64,000 bases of DNA from Chloropicon primus (taxonomy: Eukaryota). Every line of letters starts with the position of its first letter. Position 1 is the stretch's first letter. The stretch spans positions 310,001 to 374,000 of the forward strand of contig CP060754.1 of the NCBI GenBank assembly GCA_023205875.1, read 5' to 3'. Positions 15,251 to 58,300 of this stretch are shown here, one piece after another. The notes beneath the pieces were generated by a model that saw only the letters and a program-made list of their open reading frames with translations, was not told the origin of the DNA and ran no database searches. The position numbers were made by a program, and so were the translations under genes.

Positions 15251-15400
15251 CCACGCACTCTCCCGCAAGAAGCCTTGAAGTGTGTTCACGTGCGTGCTGA
15301 CGGCGGAGATCCCGGTTTTCCCGCGCGCTCAGGGCTGTGCCGGAGGAAACGGACGAGGAGGAGAAGGCCTGCAAGCCGCGGCACACGGGGGCGAAGGTCT

Positions 15401-17312
15401 ATGGGACTCGAACAGGGGAGCATGGGCGGGCCGAAACAGGTCCTCGACCGCGAAGGTGCGTCCTCTTCTTTTCAGACTTTGTTTTTTTTTTGGTGGGAAA
15501 ACGAAAACGAGTCGGGTCTGTCTGACATCACGTTGCTCGCTCGCTCTTTTCTCTCCTGCACTCTGTCTCTTCCCAGCGGTCGTGATACTGGACTACGGGT
15601 CGCAGTACACCCAACTCATCACGCGAAGGTGTCGGGAGCTGTCGATCTTCTCCGAGATCGTCCCGGGGGACACGACTCTGGTAAGCGCCCTGCCCCTTCT
15701 CGCGCTCGCTTTCCCAGGAAGGAAGAGCCCCAACCCCCGCCCCTCTCGAAACAGAAACTGAACGCGCGCGTCGTCCGCTTGCTCCACCTCGCCCTTCTCC
15801 GTCGGCCTGTCTTTCTGTCGCTCGTTTGCTTCTTTGGCGCAGGAGAGGATCAAGGAGGACGCGCCTCGCGTGGTGATCTTGTCTGGGGGCCCGAACTCGG
15901 TGCACGTCGAGGGGGCACCCAAGGTGCCGGAAGGGCTCTTCGAGTACTGCAAGGAGAACCACGTCCCGGTGCTCGGAATATGTTACGGCATGCAGCTCAT
16001 GGTGCAAACCCTCGGGGGGAGCGTCTCCTGCGCCTTCAAGGGCGAGGGGGGGGAGTACGGCCACACGTCAATCGCGACGAAGAGCTCGAGACTCTTCCAG
16101 GCCGACGAGGAGCAGACCGTGTGGATGTCTCACGGGGACGAGACGAAGACGCTTCCGGAGGGCTTCTCCGTCGTGGGAACCTCCCCAAAGGGCACGATCG
16201 TCGCCATTGAGAATCCAGGCATCGGGTTCTACGGCCTGCAGTACCATCCCGAGGTCATGCACACCGAGAAGGGCATGGAGACCCTCAGCCACTTCCTCTT
16301 CAAGATCGCGGGCCTCAAGGGGAGCTGGAGCATGCAGAACGTCTTCGACGAGCAGGTAAGGTTGATCCACAGCAAGGTTGGGCCGGGGGACCACGTGATC
16401 TGTGCCTTGTCCGGCGGAGTCGACTCCGCGGTCGCGGCGACCATGGTCCACAAGGCGATCGGAGATCGCCTGCACTGCGTCTTCGTCGACAACGGGTTGT
16501 TGAGGTACAAGGAGCGAGAGAGGGTGATGGACACCTTTGAGAAGCACCTGCACTTGCCAGTGACGTGCATCGACGCGTCGGAGCGGATGCTGACGAGGCT
16601 GAAGGGCCTGGCAGATCCCGAGACCAAGAGGAAGGCCATCGGCGAGCTTTTCATCCGTGTGTTCGAGGAGTTTGCGGGCGTGCTCGAAGCCAAGATCGGC
16701 TCCAAGCCCAGGTTTTTGGTGCAGGGCACCCTCTACCCAGATGTCATCGAAAGCTGCCCCCCACCCGGAACCAACTTGAAGCACAGCCACATGATCAAGA
16801 GCCACCACAACGTCGGGGGTTTGCCCGAAGACCTCAAGTTCGAGCTCATCGAGCCGCTCAGGTGGCTTTTCAAGGACGAGGTCAGGAAAATCGGTGCGCT
16901 GATGGGTGTGCCAAAGCAATTCTTGAGCAGGCACCCTTTCCCTGGGCCAGGGCTGGCTGTCAGGATTTTGGGGGATGTCACCGTGGGCAGCGCCTTGGAG
17001 GTGCTCCGGCTCGCGGACGAGATTTACACCAGCACCATCCGGGAGTTTGGCTTGTATGACGACATTTGGCAAGCCTTCGCAGTCTTCCTTCCGGTCAAGT
17101 CAGTTGGAGTCCAGGGGGATCAGAGGACGCATTCCCACGTGATTGCTTTGAGGGCGGTGTGCAGCGCGGATGGAATGACAGCGGATTGGTACCCCTTTGA
17201 CGGGAAGTTTCTCAAAGAGGTCTCGTCCAGGATCTGCAACAAAGTGAAGAGCGTGAACAGGGTGGTGTACGACATCACGTCCAAACCACCGGGAACCATA
17301 GAGTGGGAATAA
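15401..17312 (+). CDS. guaA: GMP synthase (glutamine-hydrolysing); exons 15401-15455, 15577-15680, 15843-17312
   Basis: The spliced product has [44 protein letters not shown] and KPPGTIEWE. Intron phases are consistent. Confidence 0.94.
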
Positions 17313-17414
17313 CTTTACCTTTGGATGGCTCGCTTTGCAACCATTTTTTTTGGCACAAGCGCGCGCGTGTGTAAAATTTTTGATACATGCATCAAGACAA
17401 CATTAAATGAAGAC

Positions 17415-19091
17415 CTACTGAAGAGCAGCGGCAATGGCGTCCTTCACAGATTTCACGGGCACGACACGTATGCCCTCGACCTTTGGAGCACCTTGCTGGC
17501 TGTGAGGCACTACAACGCGTTGGAAACCCACTTTTTGGGCCTCGATGACTCTCCTCTCCAGCTGACCCACAGCTCTCAGCTCGCCCCCCAAGCCGATTTC
17601 GCCGACGAGGGCAGTCCCGGGGGCGATTTTCTTATCAAGGTACGACGACACGATTGCCATCAACACGGCCAGGTCGGCCGCCGGCTCCCTGATTTTAAAC
17701 CCGCCCGTTACGTTCAGAAAGAGACTTGTCCCTCCCACGAAGATACCTGCGTGCTTGCTCAGGACAGCGAGAAGCATGAAAAGCCTGTTGTAGTTGACTC
17801 CGTTGGCGCTCCTGATGTACTTTTGGTTCTCCCCTCCCTGAATTTCGCTGCACAGGGCCTGAATTTCGACCAAAAGCGGCCTCGTTCCTTCCATTGTGAT
17901 GGCGACTGCCGGATAGCTCAAGCCGTTTGCCGTGGACTCCGCAAAGAAGATGCTCGGGTCGAGCACGGGCTTGAGGCCATTGGGGGCCATTTTGAACACC
18001 CCAACCTCGTCTGTCGCTCCGTAACGGTTTTTCGTGGTCCTCAAGAGCCGGTGGTGCTCAAACCTCTCGCCCTCAAGGTACAAGACAACATCGACCAAGT
18101 GCTCCAACATCTTCGGACCCGCAAGCTCCCTGCTTTTCGTCACATGTCCTATAACAAACGTCGCAATGCTGTAGAGCTTGGCCGCCTGCAGCAGAGCCGT
18201 GGCGCACTCGCGTATCTGGCTTTGTGAGCCGGCCGCCCCCTTGGCTTGAGCCAAGTAAACCGTCTGTATGGAGTCGATCACCACGGCAGCAGGTTTCAGC
18301 CGCCCCATACAAGCAAGAATCTCCTCCAAATTCGTCGCGCTGTACAGGTAGAGCCCAGACTGCTGGGAGTCCACCTCCAGCCGGCTGGCTCGGAGTGCGA
18401 GCTGTTGCGTGCTCTCCTCTCCGGAGACGTACAGAACGCACTTGTTCTCCTTGTCCCCGTTGCCCTCCTGAGAAAGCAAGCCCGCGATTTGCAGCAGCAA
18501 GGTGCTTTTTCCCACCCCGGGATCACCCCCGACCAGCACCATGGAGCCAGGAACGAGCCCCCCGCCCAGAACGCGCCCGAATTCCGCTCCCTCCTCCTCC
18601 GCGAATCTCAACCTGAACTCGTTGTCGTCCTTGACGCTGACGTCCTTGAGGAGCTTTGGACCCTCTTCCGGAGCGACCCAAGCCAGCTTCGACCTCTCGC
18701 TCGAGGAGACGTGGGACTCCGCAACAGACGACATTCCCGCGATGGCCTGAACCCCCGCACCACCTCCCAAGCCGGGGTCCGGAGCTTTCGCCACCCTCAA
18801 CTGCTTCAGGGTGTTCCAGTTGCCACAGCTCGGGCATTTGCCGTGCCACTGAGCGAAGTCCTCCCCGCAGTCCTCGCACACGTAGATGGTCTTCGACTTT
18901 TTCTTGTCCTGGCTTCCGCTGTAGGCCCTCACGCCCACCACTCTCCTCGCCCCGAACCCAACGGCCGACTCCAGACCACGCAGCCCAGCAGGGCTCTTGC
19001 CCCCCACGACGAAAGGCCGGCAGAGAGCTCTCTTCCGCAGAAGACCCCCGTGGTAGAGTCTGCCCCAAACCCTGAGGTTGCACCGCATCAT
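17415..19091 (-). CDS. radA: Organelle-targeted DNA repair protein RadA/Sms
   Basis: C4 zinc finger (CEDC…CPSC), Walker A GGDPGVGKS, IDSIQ, GHVTK, KNRYG and a Lon-like C-terminus (GEIGLGGE), after a targeting-peptide-like N-terminus. Confidence 0.94.
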   Translation of the reverse strand: MMRCNLRVWGRLYHGGLLRKRALCRPFVVGGKSPAGLRGLESAVGFGARRVVGVRAYSGSQDKKKSKTIYVCEDCGEDFAQWHGKCPSCGNWNTLKQLRVAKAPDPGLGGGAGVQAIAGMSSVAESHVSSSERSKLAWVAPEEGPKLLKDVSVKDDNEFRLRFAEEEGAEFGRVLGGGLVPGSMVLVGGDPGVGKSTLLLQIAGLLSQEGNGDKENKCVLYVSGEESTQQLALRASRLEVDSQQSGLYLYSATNLEEILACMGRLKPAAVVIDSIQTVYLAQAKGAAGSQSQIRECATALLQAAKLYSIATFVIGHVTKSRELAGPKMLEHLVDVVLYLEGERFEHHRLLRTTKNRYGATDEVGVFKMAPNGLKPVLDPSIFFAESTANGLSYPAVAITMEGTRPLLVEIQALCSEIQGGENQKYIRSANGVNYNRLFMLLAVLSKHAGIFVGGTSLFLNVTGGFKIREPAADLAVLMAIVSSYLDKKIAPGTALVGEIGLGGELRAVGQLERRVIEAQKVGFQRVVVPHSQQGAPKVEGIRVVPVKSVKDAIAAALQ

Positions 19092-19321
19092 CAGTCCCTC
19101 TTTCCCTCCCTGTCCGCAGGCTTCTCCCTGAACGCTTGCACAATGTAGGCCAAGACCACAAGGTTGACCGCAATTACCGCGGCGTAGGCGTACGCCTGAG
19201 GCTTCTCCGCCGTGTCTTCGATGCTAAGGGATGTGCAGACGTAGTATAACACCGCCGGGACCATCCACATGCACACGGAGTACAACACCAGCTTCTTCAG
19301 CACCTTCCCCTGGTCCTCCAT
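19091..19321 (-). CDS. VMA21: V-ATPase assembly factor VMA21
   Basis: 76 aa from ATG 19321 with two TM helices. It has KL..YS..M..VP, AAVIAVNLVVLAYIV.AF.E and C-terminal EGKRD, resembling the VMA21 family. Confidence 0.8.
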   Translation of the reverse strand: MEDQGKVLKKLVLYSVCMWMVPAVLYYVCTSLSIEDTAEKPQAYAYAAVIAVNLVVLAYIVQAFREKPADREGKRD

Positions 19322-19552
19322 CTCCTCCCCTTCAAGTCCTTCAGTCCCCCTTGATTTTTTCCATATGGAAAAGATCAAGATTCAAATCCCATCGTCCCAT
19401 GGAAAGGTTGCGAAGAACGCGGGAAACGAGAGTGGCCTTGGGAGGAGCGAAGCGAAGGAGCGTCTCTGTACGGAGACGGATGGACGCATGGAGTGAGGGA
19501 GCGTGGCTCTAGTCTCGGTGACGGCCCATCTTGCGGCAGTTCTGCAGGACTG

Positions 19553-19592
19553 GTATTGGTGTATTGGTGTATTGGTGTATTAGTGTATTGGT
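19553..19592. repeat. 8-bp tandem repeat (GTATTGGT)x5, one variant copy
   Basis: Visible in the divergent VMA21/KATNIP intergenic region. The four exact copies each contain ATTGG (CCAAT on the minus strand). Confidence 0.9.
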
Positions 19593-19748
19593 CCCACCCC
19601 ACCCCCACCGGTTGGGACGGACGAGACGAGACGCAGGGCTGCGGGTGGCGTGGGCGAGGAAGTGGGAGGGCGTCTGAACCTCGAGGAGCGGGCCGGAGGT
19701 TAATGCTTCTTTCTCGAAGATAGCAGTGGCTTCTGAGGCGCGACTGCT

Positions 19749-22700
19749 ATGGCAAGGCCGAGAAGGAGGCACTGGGCGCGACCACTGGTCTCGGAAGACC
19801 GAGGAGGGAAAGCCCTCAAAAGCTATGCCCCGCGTTTCAAAAACTCTTGCTTTGGTGGGGACGTGGAGAGTGAGAAGGAGTACTACCAGGAGAAGCTGCA
19901 GGACATGGATGTGTCCTCAGAGCTGGTGTGGGTCGGAGAGAAGGGGAGTGAGAAGAAAGGCTTCGGTTCCAGAGACGGACAGCGCGAGTTGTTTGCAGAC
20001 ATAGGCGAGCTGGTGCTGAGGCCAAACCAAGTCACGGTGGCGACCTCGACAACGATGCCCGAGGAGAACTCGGCGTGCGGTGGGAGGTCGGAAGGCTGCC
20101 CCAGCACGTCCCTCAGCTCGCCCGCGGAGGGCAGTGACAGAGAGAGCAAGGGCTCAAACTTGAAGGAGAAGCTGAAGAAAAACCTGCAGCGCCTCAAGAG
20201 GCGGAGCAGGCTCACGTCGGCGAACAAGAGCAAGCCGCGGCAATCCAAGGGTGATGGACTGTGGGTCGACAACGGGTTAGACATCGCTCCGGGATCGTCG
20301 AAGGCGATCGAGGAGGGGAAAGAGGAGGACGCCGGTGACGACGATGTGTACAGCGACAGCTTTGAGTCTTTTGACTCTGAAAGTCCTTCAGAGGAGGAGG
20401 AGGAGGACGGCGACGATGACGACGACGCGTTTTCGCTGCTCGGAAGTGGCAGTGATGTCTGCTGCTATGACGTGGGTGCGCTCGAAGACGTGGAGCCAGG
20501 GAGTGCAAAGAAGACGGCTGGCTCTGCCCCAGTAGTAGAAGAAAGGAAAGAGGGAAGTGAGGGCAGCAGGGAGGAGGAGGGTCGTCCCGCCATGGACACC
20601 TTCGGGGCCTCCACTATGTTTCGCGAGCTGCCTGAGGCAATGGACGACTTGAGCTACGACGATCTTATTGGGGAGTACATCGATGGCCTTGAGACAGAAG
20701 ACACGCTGATCTTGGAGGACGAGAACTCACAAGAGAATCAAAGCGTGGATTTCAAAGGGTCTTTGCCTGCCGTGGCAGAAAGTGATTCCACGCCGCAGGG
20801 CAGCAAAGGAACAAAAGTCGGAGCCGATCTTGCGGGCCGTGGCGAAAGGAGAATGCCACTCAATAGCTTGGAGTCCTTCTGCAACACAGAAGTGCTTCAC
20901 CGAGAGGTAGAGCCAAAGGCTGCCCAAGTCGCGTCAACTAAAGAGAGCAGCAGGGCTGAAGAAGAAGCCGAGGTCGAGCGGTGCATCCCCGTTCTACCGT
21001 CTGGACTGGTTCTGAGGGTAGTCGTTCACTCAAACTGGGGCGACAAGGACTTTGTGGGCCTGAACGGGATCGAAATCTTCGACGAAGACGGACATATCGT
21101 GTGCTTCTCGTCGCAGAAGAGGCAGGTTGCGCTGCAGAGCGAGGATGGTCAGGACCATCCTGAGGCACGCTTCTCGAGTTTGGAGAAGCTGACGGACGGA
21201 AACAATTTGACTTGCGACGAGTCTCACATTTGGCTGCTGCCCTTCAACCAGGAGACCAAACCAAGCATCGTGTTCAGCTTCTCAGGCCGCACCTCAATCG
21301 GAGCGATTAGGATCTGGAACTACAATAAGAGCAGGATACATTCGCACCGGGGGGCGAAGAAAGTGGAGCTGATTCTAGACGACACACGCATCTTTCACGG
21401 GGACGTGCAGAAGGCCCCTGGGATCGCCAGCGAGGCGTGGAAAGGGGCAGAGACCATCTTGTTCACAACCAATGAGGAGACGTTCAAAAACATAGAATTG
21501 TTCGATGCCAAGTACTCTTCTGTGCTGAAGGTGCCAGCCACAGAAATCGAGCGCTCGACGAAGTCTTTGGTTCTGCCCCCAATAGAGATGGTGGAGCTGG
21601 AGGAAGACAACCTGGACCTGGATGATTCTTGCCTCCTGCGCATGGGCGTTCTTGATGCACGGGACACCGACGCTTGTGAAGAAGAAAAACGCAAGCCTCT
21701 CAGCGTGAAAGAGCTTGTCATTGAGGTCGTCAGCACGTGGGGAGACGAGTTCTACGTGGGTCTAGCTGGTTTGGAATTGCTGGACGACAAGGGGTGTCCG
21801 ATGGAGATCACGATGGATCATTTGACCGCAGAGCCGTTAGACCTGAACGTGATGCCGGAATCGTGCACCGCGGACGACCGAACCCTCGACAAGCTGCTCA
21901 ATGGCAACAACGTCACCACGGACGACATCAACATGTGGCTTGCGCCCCTGGACTGGGAGGACCAAGCAAACACAATCTCCATCGACTTGAAGTCTCGAAG
22001 AAAGGTGTCTGGCCTCCGGCTTTGGAACTACAACAAGAGCCTTGAGGATACCCTGAGGGGTGTGAAGTGCGTCAAAATTTATGCCGACGGAAAGATGGTG
22101 TCGCCCGCATGTGGCCACCTTATTCCCAAAGCCCCCGGGGTCTCCTCGTTCGACTTCTCGTACACGATCACCTTCGACAGGGAGGGGGGGTCGCGGGGCT
22201 CCGAAGCGGGTGGGGGCAACCCCGAATCCGCGCTTTGGCTCAGCGCCTTGCCAAGCGGCGCAGGGGCAAAGATAGCCGCTTGCCGGTCGCAGAGGCCCAA
22301 TCGTGCGATCAAGCAGGGCTGGGAGGTCCCGATACTGCCTTGCGGCTTCGTCTTCAAGCTCGAGCTCTTCAGCACGTGGGGGGACCCCCACTACATCGGT
22401 CTGACCGGCATTGAGATCGTGGATGCCCTCTCTGGCTCGGTCCTCGTGCCGGCGGCCTCCGTGGCAGCGGAGCCGAGGGGCGTGTGCGAGCTGGAGGGCA
22501 TGGAGAAGGACGTGAGGCTCCCCTCCAGGCTCACTGACGGCCACAACAAGGCGGAGGAGGTCGCGCACTGCTGGCTCGCTCCCTACAGCGAGTCCTCCCC
22601 GAACCTCATCACCATCTACGTCAGCAGGCCGATCGTCTTGGCCGCCGTGCGGATCTGGAACTACGCCAAGACGCCCTCCAGGGGGGCCAAGGACTTCCAC

Positions 22701-27092: not shown

Positions 27093-27755
27093 CTATGCTT
27101 TGAAGACAGCGGAGGCTGAGATAATGATGGCCACGATGACCCCAAAGAGACCCAGGGCACTACCGAAGATCTCTATCACTAGAATTTTCACGAAGAGTGT
27201 TGAGTTCTGCGCGTCTGCCAGCGCACAGCTGCTCCCGACAATGCCCACGCAGATCCCACACACCAGGTTGGACAGGCCCACGCACAGACCCGAGCCAAAA
27301 ACTGCATACCCAGCCTTTAGTATTCCCACGCTCCACTCCCCGTCAGAGCCTATGGGCACGTCCTCCACTTTCGTCTGTAGGATGATGGCGGTGATTACGC
27401 CGTAGATGGCCGCAGCCTCGCAAAAGATGACACTGATCAGGTTCTTGCTCGTTATCCGAGGCGCCTTCACGGCCGCACCCACTAAACTACTGCCCGTCAA
27501 GAAGATGCCCCTGCGCGCGCGTTCCGGGGAAGTGAAGTGAAGAGGGAGAGAGCGACAACAATGAGGTCAGTTCCCTTGCTCGAACTTTTCACGAACGCGC
27601 GCGCCGAGCAAGCGTCCGTCGGCTTGGCCTCTCCTTCTCACTTACCACGCAGCCCCAGCAACGGAGAGTCCGATCGCCAACGCACAACCCAGGGAAGCCC
27701 ACATGTACGGGCTGATGTGCCTGAACACGAGACCCATGTACTCGTAGTCCACCAT
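27093..27755 (-). CDS. VMA16: V-ATPase proteolipid subunit c'' (VMA16/ATP6V0B); exons 27755-27646, 27510-27093
   Basis: Splices to …[10 protein letters not shown]…[17 protein letters not shown]…[16 protein letters not shown]…[12 protein letters not shown]. Confidence 0.93.
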
Positions 27756-28070
27756 GGTTCACAGGTATTTCTCTCTTCGTTCGCTTCCTCACTCCTACGT
27801 CCAAGCGCGTGCCCGCGCACACACACGCACACACCAGCCAACCAAACAACACCACCGAGAGCAAACGATTCCAAAGACCGCCTCGTCACCTCTCCGTTCT
27901 ATCTCTTCCCTGCGCTCAACAACACACGAGAAAGGAACTCCTTTCGCTCTCTCTTCTCTTCTCTCTCAACCCTCGCTCGCGCCTTCGCGTCGCGTAGTAA
28001 TTTTCGCCCGGCCCTGGGAGAGAGGAGAGGAGGGGAACTGGCGGCGAAGAGAAGGAGGGCGTGTGTGACG

Positions 28071-31000
28071 ATGGGCAAGAAGAACAAGAAGGGAAAGAAG
28101 AAGGCGCAGGACCTTGACGACTACCCTGACTACGACGATGACCTGGATCCTTTAAAGGGCGGAGGCGAGGCCGGGGAGGCTACGGACGGGAACGGTGACG
28201 GAGGAGAGGAGGACGAGGGGGCTGTGGAGCCACCGAAACCAGTGGCAGGGAAGAAGAAGGGGAAGAAGGGGAAGAAGGGGAAGAAGCAGCAAGTCAAGTT
28301 CGACGATAGCGACAGCGACGATGACTTCGATCCTTTGAAGAGCAAGCCGGCGGGTGGATTCGCCGCGCTCGGGGCGGGAGACGACTCCGATGAGGAAGCC
28401 GAGGAGGCGAGCTCCGAGGAAGAGGAGGAGACAGGTGGCAAGTCAAAGGGAGCCTCGGGCTTCGCTGCGCTGATGGGCGACGACGACGATGAGGACGAAG
28501 AGTCGGAGGAGGACGAGCCGGTCGTGAAGAAGTCCAGTGGCTTCGCCGCTCTCATGGCGGACGGGGACGAGGACGAGTCGGAGGAGGAGGAGGAGGAGGA
28601 GGAGGAGGATGAGCCGGTCGTGAAGAAGTCCAGTGGTTTCGCCGCTCTCATGGCGGACGAGGGCGAGGAGGAGGAGGAAGAGGAGGAGGAGGAGGAGCCA
28701 GACATGGCCAAACCAAGTGGCTTCGCCGCACTGACTTTGCTGGGGGGAGGGAGTGAGAGCGAGAGTGAGAGCGACCAAGACACAGACAGCGAGAGCGGTG
28801 AAGAGGCCGTGCTTCCTATTACTGGAAAGGTGCTGTCGACGGAGGACCACCCGAATGCAGACAAGCTGAAAGTTGTCGAGATTGATGCAGGGGATCGCAC
28901 GTATCAGATCGTTACGAGCGCAAAGAACGTGAAGAAGGGGAGGAGAGTCGCCTTGGCCCGTCCGGGCTGTGTCACCTGGGGAACCGGGATCAAGATAGAG
29001 AAGACCGAAATGAGGGGGATGGAGAGTGAGGGAATGGTTTTGTCGACCCTTGATCTTGGCTGGGAGACCGAGAAGAGCAAGAAGGCAGCGATCTTGCCCA
29101 AGAAGTGGAAGGCAGGCCACGAGGTGCCCAGAGAGATGCCAGAAGAAATGAAAGAGGACGGTGGAGTGGACCTCAGTGTGTTCGAAACGGGGAAGAAGAA
29201 GAAGAAGTCGAAGAAGGACAAGACCAAGGATTCTGATGCGGCGGAAGAGGAAGGCAGCCCAGATGAGGTGGACTTGAGCGCTTTCGGAAAGAAGAAGAAA
29301 AAGTCAAAGAAGAGCAAGGGAGGGGATTCTGAGATTTCCATGGAGAAGCTCTCTCTCGAGGAAAAGGAGGCTCCCAGCCCAGTGGAAGACGCCAAGCCCC
29401 CTCCTCCTGCTGAGAAGGAAGAAAGCGCCCCGGCCTTCGATGCATCCGCTTTTGCAACCAAAGGGAAAAAGAAGAAGAACAAGAAGAAGAACAAGAAGGA
29501 GCCGCAGCCTGCAGACGACTTGGATGACATCGATGCGATTCTTGCTCAGCTTGATGGGCCAGCCCCGGTCACAGAGGAGGCCAAGCCTGAGCCTGCCCCC
29601 GAGGAAGCAAAGCCAGAAGAGCCTGCTGAGGAAGAAGAGCCTAAAGCTCTCACCGCGAATCAGAAGAAGAAGCTCAAGAAGAAGCAGAAGGAAGCGGAGA
29701 GAAAGGCTCGGTTGGCAGCAGGCGAGGTTGATGAAAGTGAAACCAAATCCCCTGCCAAGGGCAAGAAGGGAGGCAAGCCAGTGTCTGCTGCTGTGAAGAA
29801 GATGCAGGAGGAACTGGAAAAGAGAAAGCAAATGGAAGAAGAGCAGGCGAGGCTGGAGGAAGAGCAGAGGAAGAAAGAGGAAGAGGAGGAAGCACAGCGT
29901 CTTGAGGAGGAAAGAATCAAAGAAGAAAAGAGGAAGCTGAAGAAGGAGAAGGAGCGACTGAAGAAGGAGAAGGCGAGGAAGGAAGGTAAATTGCTCACGG
30001 GCAAGGCCAAGGAGGAGGCAAAACGCCTTGCGGCCATGAGGGAGCAGATGCTTCGCCAAGCCGGCATCCTGCCCGATTCTGCTGAAGCAGAAGGCGGCGT
30101 GCGGAAGAAGGTTGTGTATGAAAAGAAGAAGAAGCGCCCCGCTCCAGCTGCAAAGCAGGAAGAGGTTAAAAAGGTGGAAGAGGAAAAGAAAGAGGAGGAA
30201 GTACCAGCCAAAGCAGAGGAGGAGGTGGTTGAGGAGACTGCCGTTGAGGAAGAACCTGTCGGGGACTGGGACGAGGTTGACTGGGAGGAGAAAGCAGATG
30301 AGAAATCCAGCTCTGCGGCACAAGCTGGCGCAAACGACGAGGCCGAGGACGACGATGAAGACAGCGATGAGTATTCGGAGTCGGACCTTGACAGTGACGA
30401 AGAGCTTGAGAGAAGGATCGAAGCCGCCCGTGAAAAACGACATGAGCGTCAAAGGGAGGCCATGAAGAACAGGTCTCCAGACCACCTTAGATCTCCAATC
30501 TGCTGTATTCTTGGGCACGTTGACACAGGAAAGACAAAGCTGTTGGACAAGATCAGGGGAACAAATGTGCAAGACGGCGAAGCTGGTGGTATCACACAAC
30601 AGATAGGTGCCACCTATATCCCGGGTAAAGAGATTGCCACGAGGACCGAGTGCCTTGGAGATAAGCAGATGAAAGGATCGAAGTTGCCGGGATTACTCGT
30701 CATTGATACTCCTGGTCACGAGTCTTTCACTAACCTGAGGTCGAGGGGAAGTGGTCTCTGTGACATTGCTATCCTTGTCGTGGATATCATGCACGGCCTG
30801 GAGCAGCAGACTATCGAATCTTTGAACATGTTGAAGATGAGGAAGACGCCATTCATCATTGCTCTCAACAAGGTTGACCGCATGTATGATTGGAAACCCA
30901 TACCAAATGGCGGATTCAGAGAAACGCTTGCATCGCAGGGAGACCACGTCCAGCAGGAATTCAAGAAGCGCTACAACGATGCAGTATTGGCTCTGAACCA

Positions 31001-32273
31001 GGAGGGAATGAACGTTGCTCTGTACTGGGAGAATCCTGATATCAAATCTTACGTCTCTATCGTTCCTACGTCTGCTATCACGGGAGAAGGAATTCCAGAC
31101 ATTCTCAATTTGTTGGTGACGCTCACTCAGCAGATGATGGTCGAAAGGCTCATGCACACGGAATACCTCCAGTGCACTGTATTGGAAGTCAAGCAGATCG
31201 AAGGTTTGGGAACAACAATTGATGTGATTCTCATCAATGGAACCCTGCGTGAGACGGACACGATCGTCGTCTGTGGTCTTGGAGGTCCCATCGTCACGCC
31301 AGTGCGCGCCCTTCTGACGCCTCACCCCATGAGAGAGATGAGAGTGAAGGGTTCCTACTTGCACCACAAGGAAATAGAAGCTGCCCAGGGTGTCAAAATC
31401 TGTGCAAACGACTTGGAAGGAGCTTTGGCTGGAACTCCGCTGTTTGTCCTGGGCCCAGAGGACGACGAGGAAGATCTCAAGGACGAAGTCGTCTCGGACG
31501 TCCAGAGCATTTTGGGCCAAGTCGACAAGAGTGGAGAAGGCGTGTGCGTTCAGGCGTCTACCCTTGGTTCCTTGGAAGCTTTGCTGGAATTCTTGAAGTC
31601 TCCAGATGTGAGGATCCCAGTCTCGGGGATTTCAATCGGCCCCGTCCACAAGAGAGATGTCATGAAGGCGAGTATCATGCTTGAGAGGAAGAAGGAGTAC
31701 GCGGTTATTCTTGCCTTTGATGTCGATGTGTCCAGGGAAGCTCGGGAGATGGCCAAGGAGCTCGACATCAAGATTTTCACGGCGGACATTATTTACCACC
31801 TTTTCGACCAGTTCACCGCGTACATGAAGAAGGTCAAGGAGGACAGGAAGAAAGAAGTGGCCCTGGATGCCACTTTCCCTTGCGTTCTCAAGATTTTGCC
31901 AACTTGCATCTTCAACAAGAAGGATCCCATTGTCCTGGGTGTTGAGGTCCTCGGTGGCATCGCAAAGGTTGGCTCTCCCTTGTGTGTCCCGACACAAGAC
32001 TTTGTCGAGATAGGAAGGATCGCTTCGCTGGAGAAGAACCACAAAGCTGTTGACAAAGCGTACGTGGGTGACTCGGTTGCCATGAAAGTGAACAGCACAA
32101 CTGCCCTGGAAGCTTCTAGGATGTACGGAAGGCACTTCGATCACACGGACGAGCTGGTGAGCAGGATCAGCAGGCATTCCATCGACTTGCTCAAGGAGAA
32201 CTACCGAGATGAGTTGACAAAGGAGGACTGGCAGCTCGTGCTGAAGCTCAAGCACCTGTTCCAAATCCAGTGA
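28071..32273 (+). CDS. EIF5B: Translation initiation factor eIF5B with an embedded tRNA-binding OB-fold domain
   Basis: ATG at 28071. It has [41 protein letters not shown] and [10 protein letters not shown], after a long K/E-rich N-terminus. Confidence 0.95.
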
Positions 32274-41844: not shown

Positions 41845-43068
41845 ATGGAGGTGATGAGCGCGAGCGCGAGGAGGGTGGTGGGCAAGTCGGGGAGGTCGAG
41901 GTCGGGGGCGGGCCAGAGGGGTGGAGCGAGGTGCCGATCCTCCGCGCGGGGGGTAGGAGCGGGTTTGATGGCGTGCCACGGTGGAGCGCACCTGTCGGAG
42001 TCGAACAAGGCGGAGCTCGAGAGGATTGCGGGTCTCATCGCGACCCCTGGGAAGGGCATCACCGCCTGCGATGAGGGTCCCGGCACGATTGGGGGCCGGT
42101 TCGAGGCCGTGGGCCTCCAGAACTCCGAGGAGGCTCGCCGGTCCTACCGCCAGATGCTCTTCGAGACGGAGGGGTCGGCGGACTACTTGTGTGGAGCGAT
42201 CTTGGACCCGGAGACCCTGTACCAGCGCTCGTCCACGGACGGGGCCCTCTTCCCGGAGAAGCTTAGCGCCCTTGGGGTCGTTCCAGGCGTCAAGCCCCAC
42301 CTGAAGGTGTACTCCTTGCCTGGCCAGGGCGGGGCCACGGTGATGCAGGGGCTGGACAGCTTGGCGGCGAGGTGCGAGGAGTATGCCGAGGCTGGAGCCA
42401 AGTTCGCGAAGTGGAGGAGCCCCCTCGAGATCGACGTGACCGCGGGGCAGCCGTCCTCGCTCACCATCCAGACCAACATGGACGACCTGGCCAGGTACGC
42501 CCTCATTTGCCAGGACAACGGCTTGATGCCTATCGTGGAGCCTGATATTTCTCTCAAGGGCTGCCATGACTTGGAGACCGCGGTTATGGTGAACGTGCAG
42601 GTCCAGAGCGCCTTGTACAAGGCCATGCTCGACCACGGGGTCTTCATGGAGGGGGCGACGCTGAAGCCCAATATCGTGAACCCCGGCCTGGACTGCGAAA
42701 AGTCTTACACCGTGGAGGAGATCGCAAAGGCGAACATCGACGTCCTGAACCGATGTTTCCCGTGTGCAATGAAGGGCGCGAACTTCTTGTCCGGCGGCCA
42801 ATCCCTCGCCGACGCCTCCGCGAGGCTGAGCATGATGAACCAGATGAAGGGCACGAGCCCTTGGAACTTGTCGTTCTCCTGGAGCGCGGCGTTGCAGCTG
42901 CCTCTCCTCGACCTCGCCAGGGAGACAAAGACCCTTTGCCTCGACGAGATGTCGGCCCTGTACCTCGAGGAGCTCAAGATAGCCGGAGCCGCTGCCAGGG
43001 GAGAGTACACTCCAAAAGGAAACGAGGGCGCCCACGTGCCAAAGCAAAAAGTAGTTGTGAACGCATAA
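41845..43068 (+). CDS. Class I fructose-bisphosphate aldolase-like protein (divergent), probably organelle-targeted
   Basis: PGKGITACDE, QGLD.L, FAKWR, LARYA.ICQ..GL.PIVEP, LKPN (Schiff-base Lys), FLSGGQS and PW.LSFS. Confidence 0.88.
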   Translation: MEVMSASARRVVGKSGRSRSGAGQRGGARCRSSARGVGAGLMACHGGAHLSESNKAELERIAGLIATPGKGITACDEGPGTIGGRFEAVGLQNSEEARRSYRQMLFETEGSADYLCGAILDPETLYQRSSTDGALFPEKLSALGVVPGVKPHLKVYSLPGQGGATVMQGLDSLAARCEEYAEAGAKFAKWRSPLEIDVTAGQPSSLTIQTNMDDLARYALICQDNGLMPIVEPDISLKGCHDLETAVMVNVQVQSALYKAMLDHGVFMEGATLKPNIVNPGLDCEKSYTVEEIAKANIDVLNRCFPCAMKGANFLSGGQSLADASARLSMMNQMKGTSPWNLSFSWSAALQLPLLDLARETKTLCLDEMSALYLEELKIAGAAARGEYTPKGNEGAHVPKQKVVVNA

Positions 43069-43171: not shown

Positions 43172-43978
43172 ATGGCGAAGGCGTTGCACTCGTTCGACGG
43201 GACGGGACGGGTGAGGGTTCCCGCGGCTAGGTCGGGGCTGGGCCCTCCCTCGTGCTCCTCGCGAGGATGGACGGCGCTCGGGAGGCATTACGGAGCCACC
43301 CGGACGTGTCGGCGGGTTCCCGCTCCACGGACTCTGGCTCTGGGTTCTACCGAGAACGAGGAAGTGGGGTCTCTGGAGGAAAGGCACGAAAGGGACGAGA
43401 AGCTGAAGGCCGCAGTCGGTGACTTCCCGGAGTCGGTCACCGTCTCGGTGACTTCCCTCCCGAGCCGGAACCTGCGGGAGCTCGTGGCCTCGACGCACAT
43501 CAACGCGCCGGCGAATATGGTTTGGGATACTCTCACGAGCTACGAGACCTTGCACGAGTTCATTCCGGGTCTGGCGGTGAACGAGTGCGTGGAGCGCACG
43601 GAGCGCGGAGCGACGTTGCTTCAGATAGGGGAGGCGAACACTGCTGTTGGGTTTAGGTTCAAGGCGAAGGTTCTGCTAAAGATTGAGGAGCACGTGAACG
43701 GGGTGAACGAGGGCCACAAGTTCAGGCGGGAGACGGAGGAGGGGAGGGTGAGGGACATCACTTTCGACCAGCTGGAAGGCGATTTCAGGGAGTACGAGGG
43801 CACTTGGAAGATTCTCGGCGGTGATTTGGAAGAGTCGTGCAAGCTCGTGTACATGCTTCGAGTGAAACCACAGCCTTGGCTCCCCGTGTCCTTGGTCATG
43901 ATGAAGGTGAGCCAGGAGGTGAAGGTCAACTTGGCTTGCGTTCGCATGCAGGCAGAGGCCACGAAGGTTCAGGTGTGA
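43172..43978 (+). CDS. Polyketide cyclase/dehydrase (START/SRPBCC) family protein
   Basis: I.AP…VW..LT.YE.L.EFIPGL and F…EGDF..YEG.W, after a transit-peptide-like N-terminus. Confidence 0.85.
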   Translation: MAKALHSFDGTGRVRVPAARSGLGPPSCSSRGWTALGRHYGATRTCRRVPAPRTLALGSTENEEVGSLEERHERDEKLKAAVGDFPESVTVSVTSLPSRNLRELVASTHINAPANMVWDTLTSYETLHEFIPGLAVNECVERTERGATLLQIGEANTAVGFRFKAKVLLKIEEHVNGVNEGHKFRRETEEGRVRDITFDQLEGDFREYEGTWKILGGDLEESCKLVYMLRVKPQPWLPVSLVMMKVSQEVKVNLACVRMQAEATKVQV

Positions 43979-52364: not shown

Positions 52365-55300
52365 TTACAAATCCACGTGGTAGTTGTACAGGTTGTTGTG
52401 GAACTCGCCCTTTCCGTGGCCTCCAAAGAGAGCTATTTTATCAGTGCCAAAAGAAGCGCCCGCAGAGTCGTACCTCTGCAGCCCTGCCTCGTTGTCAGAA
52501 GGCAAAATCAAGGCCGTCCATGCTTTCTTTTCGGCGTCAAAGACGTAAGCGTCGCCCAACTCGGTGCCCATGTCCGCCCCGCCAGCCCCGCCAACGACGA
52601 CAATGTGGCTACCGAAAGCAACACCGACACCGCTGTGCCTCTCTGGAGGAAGGACCGATGGGAACGATATGGCATCGCTAGGGTCCATGACGTAACTCTC
52701 CCCGAAGTTAGTCCTGCGAGGACCAACCAAAGTCCATTTGGAGGACTTGAAGTCAAAGGACCACAGCTCCGTGGTCAGCTTCTCGCTGTCGTGCAAGTAT
52801 CCACCGTAGATGTACATCTTGTCCCCAGACACCACAGCTACGTGGCCAAACCGAGGACCCATGCCCTCAGAGGTTGGCATAACATTCCAAGTCTGAAGCT
52901 TGAAGTCGTACTTCCAGAAGTCACCCTGTGGGTCCGGCGATCTCCCTCCATAAATGTACATGCAGTCCTCGTGCACGACTGCGCTGTGATCGTATCGGCC
53001 CAAGGAAGAGCTCATGTTCTTCACGGGAATGAAGCTCCAGGCGTCCGCAGCAAAGTCGTACTTCCACAGATCGCTATAGAAGTAGGCTGACCTCTCTCCT
53101 CCGAAGATGTACATGCTGTCGCCATAGACCACGGAGGCGTGAGCTTGACGCTTTGGTGGGGGACTGCTGAGTCCAACCGACTCCCAACCGGCGTCAGGGC
53201 TGTACGAAACGGCGTCTTCTCCGCCCATCTGGACAGACACGGCTGGATCGTAGGAGGTTGCGATGATGGTATCATAGTAACCCACGGAACCCTTGGAGCT
53301 TCCAGCAGCGGTGGTGCCTCTGATGAAAATCTTGTCAAGATCTGTCGCTGCGGTTTCCGCGGTGAGCTGCCCATCCACATACATCTTCAGGTTGGTGTCA
53401 TCATCCACGAGGTAGAATTCGTTAAACCCGAATTTCCTGGACGAGGCGCCTGCCTTCCAAGGCGAGGAGTACGCGTACTTGCTTGGGTTGGACGAAGAGT
53501 AGACGCCAATGGCGCTTCCTGCGCTTGACTCGACCTTCGAACCACCGAGGGCAGTGCATGCCTCGAAGTCGGGGGACAAGAAGTGGATTCCCTCGCAAAG
53601 GGTGTCGAAGAAGTAGTACTTCAGCCTGAACTTCGTGAGGTTACTGGTAACCGTCTTGATCGACCCTCCGATCGTGTTCTCTGCGTCGACCTTCAAGGAC
53701 TTTGATCCAGTCACGGAAACGTCAGAGGAGGTTGTGAATCCAGAGATGTCACCGGCCGTGGCACAAGTATCGGTCTCCAGAGTGAATGTTTCCGGCAGGG
53801 TGTCTCCCTCAAAGTCTTCGAAATACTCGAACATGCTTGTGCTTGGAGTCGAGGACTTCTTGTGGTTTCCATAGTACATGTAGAATTCATCCTGAGCGGA
53901 CGTCAGAGATACGTAAATAGTCGTGCTTGTCGTGCCGCAGCCGGAGACACCACTTGGAGCCATGAAGTACTGAAGCTCGCTGCCTTCCTTGGAGTGGAAG
54001 AGAACGTCGCTGCAATCGGGCTTGAGCTTTCCGTCTTGGATCATTCCGTGCGTGTCCAGGTCAAATTCAACGATGTAATCGGTCGTCTTGCCTGTCACCT
54101 TGATGGTTCTCCTGTATTTCCAGTCATCGTCGGCATTCGTGCTCTTCCACTTCCACGTGTCACCGGCGTAACTACCCTGGTGGGTTGCGCCACCAAAGAC
54201 GTAAAGATCTCCGTTAGAAGGACGGGACTCCATGCTGTGCTCAAAACGCGTCACAGGCTTGTTGCCGTACGTGATAGCTTCCCTCAAAGCTGGCTTGGCC
54301 ACATTTATGACGGTAGGGAAGCCCTCCATGATAGCTTCGTCGACGTACAAGGCGAGGTAGTAAGATCCCGCAGAAGGATAGGTAACCGTGAACTTGTAGG
54401 TTTGCCCGGCTTCCTTCTCCACAGACACCTTTGCTGCATATGCCTGTCCATTCAAATCAGTGGCACTGTACTGGAAGCTGGAGGAGTAGTCCTTCGTTCC
54501 CACCATTGGGTTCCCGAAGGCATCCTTGGGCTCCACAACAATGGTCGTCGGAACTCCAGCCTCGGCCGCAGTCAGGTGTCCAGAGACAGCAGACTCCTTG
54601 GCCGAGATTGCGCCTGGAGCAATCGCGATGGTCGAGTCCACAAAGGTCGAGGCCCCTGAAGTGATCTTCAACTGGCCATCACCGGCATGTGAAGGAGTGT
54701 AAGAGAACATGTAAACGTCTCCAAACCTACCGCAAGGCTCGCCGTCGCCAGAGAAAGTACTGGTCACTGGCAGAGCAGCTGGCGTTGTCACGGCAATGTG
54801 TCCACACTCGGCTGCCACGGACGTGTCCAAGTAACCAGCGAACGAGATTTGGGAGGTCAGCGCAAGGTCTGCTGGAGGAGCGTATCCTGGGTATCCGCAT
54901 ACATCGCTGACGGTCGCGGCAAACACCTTGGTCTCTCCAGCCACTGCAGAACCCATGCTCCATGCGGAGCAATCCCCGCTAGTCTTGAGAGCTGCAGGCA
55001 ACTTGCCTTGAATGCTTGCGCTGTAGGGGCACTCTGGGGTGTCCAGCTTGAACTTTCCAACATTAGTCGGCGCAGTGTCAGTGGACCAACCCGATGTGGA
55101 GGACGAGGAGCAAACCGCATTCACGGCAAGGGAGCGGGCCCTTCCCTTGCAGATGTTCCCGAAGACTGCCGTAGACGCGGTCACGGCGCACGATTCCTTG
55201 TTCAAGCAAGCGGCCTCAACAACAGAGTTAGATGTCGAGGAGACGCAATCAGCCTGGTAGTTGCCGCAGCCTCCTTCGTTCTCACCAAAGTTGGCGTACA

Positions 55301-58300
55301 AGATCTCAGTGATCTTTGTCCCAGTAGGGCACTTGAGGGAGATCGCCTTGTTCTCGGTCGCCTTGTCGCAAACGAGACCAATAACGCCATCGTTGTTGTG
55401 CTTGGAGGAGTCCTTCGTGAGGTGACTGTAACCTTCGTTGAACCTGTAGTAGGCGACGAGGTGGTCATCCACAGCCTTGACGTTCTGAGGGCAGAGCGAA
55501 GTACCCTGAGGGTCAGCAAGGACAGCGGAGTGGATCATAACGTTGTCAATGAGTCCCTTGAAGTACTTTCCAACATGCACGGCCTGAGAGGAACGCTTCT
55601 GGTACTTTGGCTCCTCATCGTCGAAGCTTTTCGTGGCAAGCAAGGTTCCGTCCATGAAGAGCTGGAACTTTGTGCCGTCGTACGTCACACTCAGATGAGC
55701 CCAGGAAGAGGCAGAAAGTGTTACCTCAGACTTTGCGATCCTGAACGTCTCAGAGCCAACGTAAACACCTGCTTCGAGGTTGTACTTCTCTCCGCTGATC
55801 GCGAGAAGAGCGAACCAATACCCCTTTCCGGAGTGTTCCGACTGCTTTGACACAATGTACTCCTTTGCGTAACCTGACGTTCCCGTCTTCTTGACGAAAG
55901 CAGAGATGGTGAAGGAATCGGTGAGGTCCAACTCGTCAGAGTCCGCAAAGGTCGCGTACGTCGAGTCTCCCGAAAGAGACAGCGAAGACCCCTCCTTCAC
56001 GTCAACGCAGAACTTGCAGTCGCCTCCAGTCGCAGGCTTGCCGAGCGAACAGTACTCCGTGGAAGACTGAGATCCCCCCTTGCAGGTGTATCCGCCGTAC
56101 TGGCATACGGAAAAGTTCGAGGCGGTGACCCCCATCCTGTACTGGCCCGTCACCGGAGCGTTGTACGTCACAGAGTAAGTGCCGTCCATGTTATCCGTCG
56201 TGGATCCAGCAAAAGGCACTGGGCCCTCGAAGCTGACTTGTGGCTCGTCCAAATCACACCCGGAAGTTCTCAGGTTTCCGTACTTGTCGACAGTTTGGAG
56301 AGTATAGGTAACAGGGACGCCCGCAAAGGATGTCTCAGTTTCCTTGATTCCAAGAAGATCAGTGTCGTCAAAGATGTAAGACGCAGGGCCCGTGATGAAT
56401 GGCTGCACGTAGGTCTTGTACCCGCCCGACTGGATGTCAACACCGTTCAGCTTCGCGTAAACCTTGTAGTATCCCGCATCCTGCAAAGTGATGTTCGCCA
56501 GGTAGGATCCGTCGCCAAGATCAGTGATTCCGTCACCGACGTTCAGAATCTTCATTTCCGTGTGGACATGGAGGGGTCCGATAATCTCGATGGTGAATCC
56601 GTCGCCTCCAGACTTCATCTTCGAGCCGCACTTATCGTGTGCCGCAATCGTGACAAGGCCACACTGTCCAGCGATCATTCTAGTCAATGCGGTCCCGATA
56701 ACCTTAGTTGTCGCACTCGAGGCTTTGTAGTGCCCACAGACGTTTGGGACCCAAGCCGGCTTCACGAGGGTAGCATCCAAGAAATGGTCGGAAGCGACGT
56801 TGTCGGCGTAAGTACCCGTGCCCTCGTTCAGGGAAAGATACACGCTAAGATCAGAGTCGGTCCTTGGCAAGCACTCGGTGATGGGCTTCATCTCTGCGGT
56901 GGTCGCAACGGCCTTGTTGTAGACAGCGAAATCGTACAAAAGTCCACTGAATCCGCCACCCACAACGAAGTCACCGTCGGTTGGCACAATCATGGCCTCC
57001 CTGCTGAAGACTTTTTGCTCCGTGAGGACACCGTTCACAAAGAAGGACATCGTCTTTCCGTCATAGGAAACGGCAACGTGTTGCCACTCGTCCTTGAGAA
57101 CGAGAGATTTCAAGGACTTGTGCTCGCGGTAGATGCAAACCCCACTACAAGCACAGTCTGTTGACGGCTCCACGACGTTGAAGCTTGCGGACAAGCTTCC
57201 GTCGTTCACGCTGAAGTCAATCGCGTCGTCCTGGGAGGAGATGGACAACAGGCCAGACACCTTGTCGGGCTTGATCCAAGCTCCAATGGTGATTGGTCCT
57301 GTTCCTGCCCTGAGATTTTCTGACGGAATGACCTGCCTTGGCACGGCACTGCCACTGGAAGAGTATTCCAACTTGAGAGAGGCGTCTCCTGACTTGTCGG
57401 TGTACAAGATCTCAATCGCGTGCCAGCCCGCAGACAAGTCCATGGTGCCACTCAAGGCTCTCGCAGTGCCAGCATAGTCAGGGTCCTGGATAACAACGCT
57501 GTCAGCGACAGAGAGCGTGACACCATCGTCAGCCGTGACGTAGAAGGTGTAAAGAGAATCTACGGGGGCGTAAACGTAGCCAGAAGCGTTGAAGGACCAG
57601 ATCTCGTCATTGAAGTTGTTGGTTCCCCAGGTCAAATCGATCTTGCTGGCGATGTAGTTGTAATCCTTCGCACCGCCGTAGACTTGTGCAAGCAGGCCCT
57701 TTGCTCCCGCGGGAGTACCGCCTGAAGAGAAAGGAACGGTGACGGTAGTCTCCGAAGCTTCACCGAGGGACAGAGCATAGCCATCGGTATCGTAGAGCAT
57801 GACCACTTCGGTCTCACTGAGCTCTCTGTCGTAGATCCAAACGTCGTCCACGACAATCTTTTGACGCCCGCTGATCTTTCCGGTGTCAAAGAATTCCGTG
57901 ATCACGTTAGAGTAAGCGGAAGCACCGTTCACAAGGACGCCATTCACGTAAGTCTTTTCCTTGGTTCCTGCGACAAACTTCCATGCGTTTGGAACAACTT
58001 CAGCGTGTGACTTTCCAGACTCGGCAAGGCAGCCAGGGTACCCGATGGTGTCCTCGAACACCTCCTGGGCAGAGCAAGTCGTGGGGAAATCCTCTTCCCC
58101 GAACATGACCCACATGGCCAAGAATTTAGAAGACGCGGAGCAGGCCTGCATGTCGAGGGAGGCGCTGTTAGAGAGCTCGTACGCGGCCTTTTCGATCCCA
58201 TTCCTGTTGTTTGTCTGCGTGACGTTGCCGCTGGTAGCGGCGTCGTTTCCGTTGCCAGACACATCCTTCAAGCCACCCGCGAGTGGGAACCAGCAGGTGA

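What the first reader, a model, noticed from the sequence alone, without database searches (positions are those of the whole stretch)
17415..19321. VMA21 and RadA ORFs joined by an overlapping TGATG stop-start: candidate translationally coupled bicistron
Seen: on the minus strand …GAC TGA TG ATG CGG…. The VMA21 stop (19093-19091) shares its A with the RadA ATG (19091-19089), and a second in-frame ATG follows at 19088. There is no space for a terminator or promoter between them. Established: bicistronic nuclear mRNAs occur in green algae, usually explained by leaky scanning, whereas stop-start overlaps typify bacterial coupling and viral termination-reinitiation. Inference: the VMA21 ATG is in a strong context (gagATGG) and has two internal in-frame ATGs, which disfavours leaky scanning and suggests reinitiation.
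Basis: partly seen in the sequence, partly recalled or inferred. Interest (0 to 1): 0.75.

Follow-up and report, generated by a model that had tools for sequence, protein, structure and literature searches.

The report
Algal VMA21–RadA two-gene message candidate
In a tiny marine green alga, a small V-ATPase assembly gene ends on the same base where a DNA-repair gene starts; the two likely share one messenger RNA, as many green-algal gene pairs do, and the public annotation likely fuses them by mistake.

Summary
Both ORFs are real genes (PF09446; TIGR00416 above cutoff), and the RadA clusters with Chloropicon primus RadA. One contig in 1 of 4 runs bridges the junction unspliced, which suggests but does not prove one mRNA. 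A C. roscoffensis-like locus keeps the VMA21>RadA order but with a 70-nt, AUG-free spacer, so the pair is conserved and the overlap is not. No UGGGA (TURBS core) is present. Overlapping stop/start codons are already reported in Auxenochlorella bicistrons, and VMA21 is already ORF1 of a Chromochloris bicistron with another partner. The internal-ATG argument is weak (poor contexts; Met18 conserved in 11 of 12 rows). The strong VMA21 start is real and keeps reinitiation open. Best reading: a new locus of the known green-algal bicistron class, with RadA likely made by ribosomes that bypass the VMA21 start. NCBI model QDZ17686.1 fuses the genes through a 74-nt intron that the contigs and protein conservation contradict.

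The parts
19091..19321 (-). ORF1: VMA21-like V-ATPase assembly factor, 76 aa, intronless
   Evidence: PF09446 above cutoff; 56% identical to the L001 orthologue, codon differences 22/16/34 by position; C-terminal FREKP conserved
17415..19091 (-). ORF2: RadA/Sms, 558 aa, likely organellar (C4 Zn ribbon, Walker A GDPGVGKS, KNRYG, Lon-like C-terminus)
   Evidence: TIGR00416 above cutoff; Pfam; 90% cluster shared with C. primus QDZ17686.1
19086..19093 (-). TGATGATG junction: VMA21 stop overlapping RadA ATG1 by 1 nt; ATG2 starts 2 nt after the stop and has A at -3
18912..19091 (-). Predicted organellar targeting peptide of RadA (residues 1-60; 12 R/K, 1 D/E)
   Evidence: composition, and local similarity to the C. 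roscoffensis N-terminus (21 of 5000 shuffles reach the score); targeting inferred from Arabidopsis RADA (PMC9129000)
19060..19133 (-). 74-nt intron implied by the fused public model QDZ17686.1; likely not real
   Evidence: reconstructed from P0121; read through unspliced by X1 record 3 and entered by X2 record 4; it would remove conserved VMA21 residues 64-76
19341..19400 (-). Upstream ATGs at 19400, 19392 and 19364: a 19-codon uORF and a 5-codon uORF (19392-19375). Whether they lie in the mRNA is unknown
   Evidence: L001 also has two ATGs 8 nt apart, the second opening a 5-codon uORF
19353..19361 (-). GAAAAA(A)TC motif, single copy in the window and also upstream of L001 VMA21; candidate cis-element
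   Evidence: picked after seeing the alignment
19419..19426 (-). E2F-like site TTTCCCGC in the region shared with the divergent DUF4457 gene (motif recalled from memory)
   Evidence: 16 matches in the window; one also upstream of L001 VMA21

Best explanation
VMA21 and RadA are two separate genes that likely share one mRNA, a green-algal-type bicistron, in which RadA would be made mainly by ribosomes that bypass the VMA21 start. Shown: two real ORFs, a 1-nt overlap, an unspliced bridging contig in one run, conserved order with a different spacing in a relative. Inferred: transcription starts upstream of VMA21 and ends after RadA; most ribosomes make VMA21; a minority skip its ATG, either because the leader is very short (under 43 nt if it excludes the upstream ATGs) or after translating the 5-codon uORF; they pass two weak internal ATGs and start at RadA ATG1 or ATG2. 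On this reading the overlap is the shortest possible spacer in a compact genome and not a coupling device.
For: X1 record 3 (18624-19281, 658 nt, no gaps) bridges the junction with 190 nt on the VMA21 side; all 4 runs skip a GT..AG intron at 15679-15842, so they hold spliced RNA. No TGTAA lies anywhere from the VMA21 ATG to the RadA stop, and the highest A+T over 40 nt after the VMA21 stop is 0.525, whereas 25 of 27 control stops reach 0.575 or more and TGTAA is about 6-fold enriched after them. L001 keeps VMA21>RadA with a 70-nt spacer free of ATG, and a weak VMA21 context (-2.15) against RadA (-0.8). C. roscoffensis accessions WZN61357 (RadA) and WZN61358 (VMA21) are consecutive. The anatomy fits the class: short ORF1, long ORF2, short gap. 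5 of 43 rows of the Auxenochlorella list have inter-ORF 0; one has a 213-nt ORF1 with 2 internal in-frame AUGs. One pair shares a single base there, and its listed Chlamydomonas orthologue pair is 80 nt apart. VMA21 is ORF1 of Cz10g22200>Cz10g22190. The internal ATGs score -2.8 and -0.6.
Against: Only 1 of 4 runs bridges the junction, at depth 9. Contigs cannot show a single transcript, and the same runs fuse the convergent GMP synthase and RadA genes into one contig. X2's contig ends 15 nt upstream of the RadA ATG, which could be truncation or a separate start. The VMA21 context is strong locally (above 16 of 22 control starts) and the RadA ATGs are weak (above 4 and 2 of 22), the inverse of the class pattern. 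The lack of out-of-frame ATGs in VMA21 is not significant (63% and 89% of synonymous shuffles also have none). The lack of an A+T-rich tract after VMA21 partly follows from RadA coding sequence lying there. Conservation rests on two species of one genus. The TSS is unknown.
Confidence: 0.45

Rival explanations
1. One bicistronic mRNA, but in C. primus RadA is made by termination-reinitiation: ribosomes finishing VMA21 restart at the overlapping ATG or the one 2 nt later.
For: Strong ORF1 context, weak ORF2 contexts and a 1-nt overlap. UAAUG/AUGA-type overlaps typify coupled termination-reinitiation, and cellular cases without TURBS exist (PMC5972666 passages). Duenas et al. do not exclude some reinitiation.
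Against: The overlap is absent in L001 (70-nt spacer). No TGGGA within 110 nt upstream or in the VMA21 CDS. Reinitiation after long ORFs is described as presumably very rare. The context matrix rests on 22 hand-picked, unverified starts, and RadA ATG2 has the commonest local base (A, 15 of 22) at -3.
Confidence: 0.22
2. Two overlapping monocistronic mRNAs: RadA has its own start inside the VMA21 CDS, and VMA21 either ends inside RadA or is the only product of a long transcript.
For: X2's contig stops at 19106. The last ~40 nt of VMA21 are purine-rich like local leaders. The L001 spacer has a CT tract that could be promoter or leader sequence. Overlapping transcripts occur next door (GMP synthase/RadA).
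Against: No 3'-end-like sequence follows VMA21 in either species. The purine-rich end encodes E/G/K/R/D residues also seen in P0156. X1's contig extends 190 nt into VMA21.
Confidence: 0.25
3. One spliced fusion protein, VMA21(1-63)-RadA(12-558), as in the public model QDZ17686.1.
For: The NCBI/UniRef 610-aa model; a GT..AG 74-nt intron reproduces it exactly.
Against: No contig shows this joint; X1 reads through it and X2 enters it by 47 nt. The donor GT is absent in L001 (GCC TTT). The 'intron' encodes the conserved FREKP, with E66 invariant in 12 of 12 rows. C. roscoffensis has separate models. The 558-aa form is itself in the collection.
Confidence: 0.05

Closest known systems
Green-algal nuclear bicistrons (Gallaher 2021 PMC7896298; Duenas 2025 PMC11892635)
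   Same: Short ORF1, long ORF2, very short gap, functionally unrelated partners, few AUGs before ORF2; stop/start overlaps already reported in A. protothecoides.
   Different: Chloropicon is not among the species those papers list in the sections I read; the ORF1 context here is strong and the ORF2 context weak; no Iso-Seq or Ribo-seq exists for this locus in my calls.
Chromochloris zofingiensis Cz10g22200 (VMA21) > Cz10g22190 bicistron
   Same: VMA21 as ORF1 of a two-ORF transcript.
   Different: The partner is a 735-nt ORF, too short for RadA; the spacer is 220 nt.
Viral coupled termination-reinitiation (calicivirus TURBS, influenza B M1/BM2 UAAUG)
   Same: Pentanucleotide stop/start overlap (TGATG against UAAUG).
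   Different: No UGGGA core; overlap not conserved in the relative; nuclear gene.
Arabidopsis RADA (At5g50340; PMC9129000)
   Same: RadA/Sms domain layout with a non-conserved N-terminal extension.
   Different: KNRYG for KNRFG; targeting not tested here; I did not check its transcript structure.

Membership tests
Green-algal bicistron | Both ORFs consistently on one full-length mRNA | tested here: inconclusive
   1 of 4 runs has a bridging contig; contigs cannot prove a single transcript
Green-algal bicistron | Both ORFs translated (Ribo-seq or proteomics) | not testable with these tools
   Only protein conservation is available
Green-algal bicistron | Short ORF1, longer ORF2, short gap | tested here: met
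   231 nt, 1677 nt, -1 nt, against local gaps of 103-1121 nt
Green-algal bicistron | Colinear orthologues in another species | tested here: met
   L001, 70-nt gap; consecutive C. roscoffensis accessions; one genus only
Green-algal bicistron | No separate poly(A) signal after ORF1 | tested here: met
   No TGTAA and no A+T-rich tract; a sequence proxy only, and TGTAA follows just 9 of 27 control stops within 150 nt
Leaky-scanning bicistron | ORF1 start context weaker than ORF2 | tested here: not met
   Window: 2.9 against -2.6/-4.5; met in L001 (-2.15 against -0.8); matrix from 22 starts. In the paper this is a statistical trend, not a rule
Leaky-scanning bicistron | AUG depletion before ORF2 | tested here: inconclusive
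   0 out-of-frame ATGs in both VMA21 ORFs, but only 0.44 and 0.11 expected
Leaky-scanning bicistron | Short 5' UTR | not testable with these tools
   Contigs cannot show starts
TURBS-type termination-reinitiation | Stop and start overlapping or within a few nt | tested here: met
   TGATG; not met in L001
TURBS-type termination-reinitiation | UGGGA motif 1 upstream of the stop/start | tested here: not met
   None in the 110 nt upstream or in the VMA21 CDS, none in 200 nt in L001; feature from PMC5972666
TURBS-type termination-reinitiation | ORF2 output depends on termination at the ORF1 stop | not testable with these tools
   Needs a reporter
RadA/Sms | C4 Zn finger, Walker A, KNRFG-type motif, Lon-like domain; TIGR00416 | tested here: met
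   KNRYG variant, also in P0005 and P0022
VMA21 | PF09446 above gathering score, two hydrophobic segments | tested here: met
   39.5 bits against 29.5; profile hits include named VMA21 proteins; transmembrane topology not computed

The most novel reading that the evidence does not exclude
After losing the 70-nt spacer, C. primus switched from leaky scanning to true termination-reinitiation at TGATG (strong ORF1 start, weak overlapping ORF2 start), while its sister species kept the leaky layout. That would be a native nuclear case of TURBS-free reinitiation in green algae and a two-species natural experiment on how bicistron mechanisms interconvert, possibly tuned by a conserved 5-codon uORF.
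Probability: 0.2. Interest if true: 0.65.

Novelty: new member of a known kind. Interest (0 to 1): 0.32.

Why it matters
If confirmed, it extends nuclear bicistrons to Chloropicon (Chloropicophyceae), for which my searches found no such report. It corrects a public fused gene model that hides the C. primus VMA21 and gives RadA a membrane N-terminus in place of a targeting peptide, and it suggests that such fused models may hide more bicistrons in this genome. The two sister alleles (overlap with strong ORF1 start; spacer with weak ORF1 start) make a ready pair for testing leaky scanning against reinitiation. The phenomenon itself, overlaps included, is already in print.

Tried and rejected
No whole genome is held, so no genome-wide overlap census was possible. 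No run is on record as RNA; 'RNA' is the tool's guess, backed only by the spliced joint. The lack of cover over VMA21 in X2-X4, and over roughly 19340-20280 in all four runs, was not used as evidence. A control on how often contigs bridge other tandem genes is missing, so the background rate of bridging is unknown. The homologue search with the single VMA21 found nothing. The search for longer fused forms found none but is weak, and did not return the known fused model either. The RadA motif scan gave 2 loci in metagenome contigs, of which only L001 includes the upstream region, and 0 in viral and genome contigs. Third lineage: VMA21 P0156 and RadA P0123 share a longest-contig length of 20519, a hint only; the frame-compatibility test of P0128 against P0156 excluded offsets -4 to 46 but cannot exclude an overlap at P0128's first Met, and the two may not be conspecific: inconclusive. 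Single MFE folds of the junction, VMA21 start and L001 spacer were run without shuffle controls and not interpreted. Read-through is rejected (the ORFs are in different frames); an upstream in-frame RadA start is rejected (TAG at 19226 with no ATG between). 'RadA' does not occur in the supplements of either bicistron paper, but the Auxenochlorella tables carry mostly gene IDs without names, so a VMA21 or RadA row there cannot be excluded, and one Gallaher file was cut when stored. Earlier-findings look-ups returned nothing.

Full report
Observation. The minus strand reads GAC TGA TG ATG CGG. The 76-aa ORF 19321-19091 and the 558-aa ORF 19091-17415 share base 19091, with a second in-frame ATG at 19088. 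ORF1 is VMA21 (PF09446, 39.5 bits against cutoff 29.5). ORF2 is RadA/Sms (TIGR00416, 502.8 against 403). RadA has no Met between residues 2 and 120 and its Zn ribbon lies at 70-96, so ATG1 or ATG2 is the start. Residues 1-60 are basic, nearly free of acidic residues and locally similar to the C. roscoffensis N-terminus (21 of 5000 shuffles reach the score). This fits a targeting peptide; Arabidopsis RADA goes to both organelles (PMC9129000, passages). The nine other same-strand neighbour gaps I listed are 103-1121 nt, so -1 stands out.

Organism and annotation. The RadA falls in one 90% cluster with QDZ17686.1 of Chloropicon primus. That public model is 610 aa and is VMA21 residues 1-63 joined to RadA residue 12 onward; a GT..AG intron at 19133-19060 reproduces it. 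The intron is likely false. No contig shows the joint, X1 record 3 reads through it and X2 record 4 enters it. It would delete FREKP, with E66 invariant in 12 of 12 aligned rows, two of which are near-identical. The donor GT is absent in the relative.

Transcript evidence. Four runs were laid; none is on record as RNA, but all skip a 162-nt GT..AG intron next door. One contig (X1 record 3, 18624-19281, depth 9, no gaps) bridges the junction with 190 nt on the VMA21 side. X2 ends 15 nt past the RadA ATG; X3 and X4 do not reach it. That is 1 of 4, and a contig is not a transcript: in X1, X2 and X3 a contig runs on past the GMP synthase stop, and in X1 and X2 far into the convergent RadA gene. 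I have no control for how often tandem genes are bridged. As a proxy, the first 150 nt after 27 control stops are enriched for A+T-rich words, including TGTAA (9 of 27, 1.4 expected). VMA21 has no TGTAA before the RadA stop and no A+T-rich tract, in the window or in L001. This is partly expected because coding sequence follows.

Conservation. One metagenome scan gave 2 loci; L001 covers the upstream region. Its RadA matches the C. roscoffensis cluster and is preceded on the same strand by a 73-aa VMA21 (56% identical), but with a 70-nt spacer free of ATG. C. roscoffensis RadA and VMA21 have consecutive accessions. The pair is conserved and the overlap is not. With two taxa the direction of change cannot be told.

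Start contexts. A matrix from 22 hand-picked, unverified starts in the window (A at -3 in 15, G in 5) scores VMA21 M1 at 2.9 (above 16 of 22 leave-one-out controls), the internal ATGs at -2.8 and -0.6, and RadA ATG1/ATG2 at -2.6/-4.5. In L001, VMA21 scores -2.15 and RadA -0.8. The internal ATGs carry little weight: they are weak, and Met18 is present in 11 of 12 rows. Neither VMA21 has an out-of-frame ATG, which is not significant. There is no UGGGA. L001 has the same layout: two ATGs 8 nt apart, the second in strong context opening a 5-codon uORF. Either the leader is shorter than 43 nt or it holds uORFs; both would let ribosomes pass a strong ATG. That step is inference.

Mechanism. Most likely one mRNA (about 0.7), with RadA made by bypass of the VMA21 start (0.45 overall). 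Reinitiation at the overlap (0.22) has the inverted contexts in its favour and the non-conserved overlap against it. Separate overlapping transcripts (0.25) remain open until ends are mapped. The spliced fusion gets 0.05.

Comparison with what is known. For Duenas 2025 (PMC11892635) I read the abstract, Results parts 1-2 of 4, Discussion part 1 of 2, SI part 1, Dataset S01 parts 1-2 and S02 part 2. It states that some A. protothecoides loci contain overlapping ORF1 stop and ORF2 start codons. 5 of 43 rows (two loci are listed twice) have inter-ORF 0; one has a 213-nt ORF1 with two internal in-frame AUGs; one shares a single base while its listed Chlamydomonas orthologue pair is 80 nt apart. 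For Gallaher 2021 (PMC7896298) I read passages, section 16, supplement hits and Dataset S1 part 3: VMA21 is ORF1 of a C. zofingiensis bicistron with a different partner, and negative inter-ORF distances occur. TURBS features come from passages of PMC5972666. The two Chloropicon genome papers were searched by term only: 'bicistron' and 'overlap' are absent from PMC12301720, 'RadA' is absent from PMC6731263 and its 'overlap' hits concern assembly; their supplements were not read. Library searches for polycistronic + Chloropicon and VMA21 + RadA listed nothing on this pair (listings only; subscription papers are not covered).

Verdict. A real and well-described feature; a probable new locus of a known class in a lineage where my searches found no report, plus an annotation fix. 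The claim of viral- or bacterial-style coupling is possible but not favoured. Interest 0.32.

Noticed in passing
window 41845-43068 and 43172-43978 (+): Aldolase followed after 103 nt by a polyketide-cyclase-family ORF; no A+T-rich tract or TGTAA after the first stop (lowest of 27 controls) and no ATG in the 120 nt before the second start: a second candidate bicistron or read-through pair.
   Followed up: partly
window 17313-17414: GMP synthase (+) and RadA (-) stops are 102 nt apart and contigs run through both, so their 3' UTRs likely overlap; the same convergent arrangement is in L001 and L002.
   Followed up: partly
window 19419-19426 and 19381-19386 (-); L001 3073 and 3093: E2F-like and TTTGAA motifs (both recalled from memory) upstream of VMA21 in both species, and an E2F-like site at 15317 upstream of GMP synthase; a cell-cycle-type promoter would suit RadA more than VMA21.
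   Followed up: partly
L001 4600-4667: The relative's RadA has a short intron with a CT-rich tract that the window's RadA lacks; gene callers split it into 358-aa and 156-aa pieces.
   Followed up: no
window 19550-19579 (-): Short CCAATACA-type tandem repeats between VMA21 and the divergent DUF4457 gene.
   Followed up: no
window 52365-63698 (-): A 3777-codon open frame with laminin-G, TIG, filamin, lectin, PA14 and Kelch domains.
   Followed up: no
window 27561-32273 (+): A 1570-aa ORF joining a tRNA-binding domain (PF01588) to an eIF5B/IF2-type GTPase.
   Followed up: no
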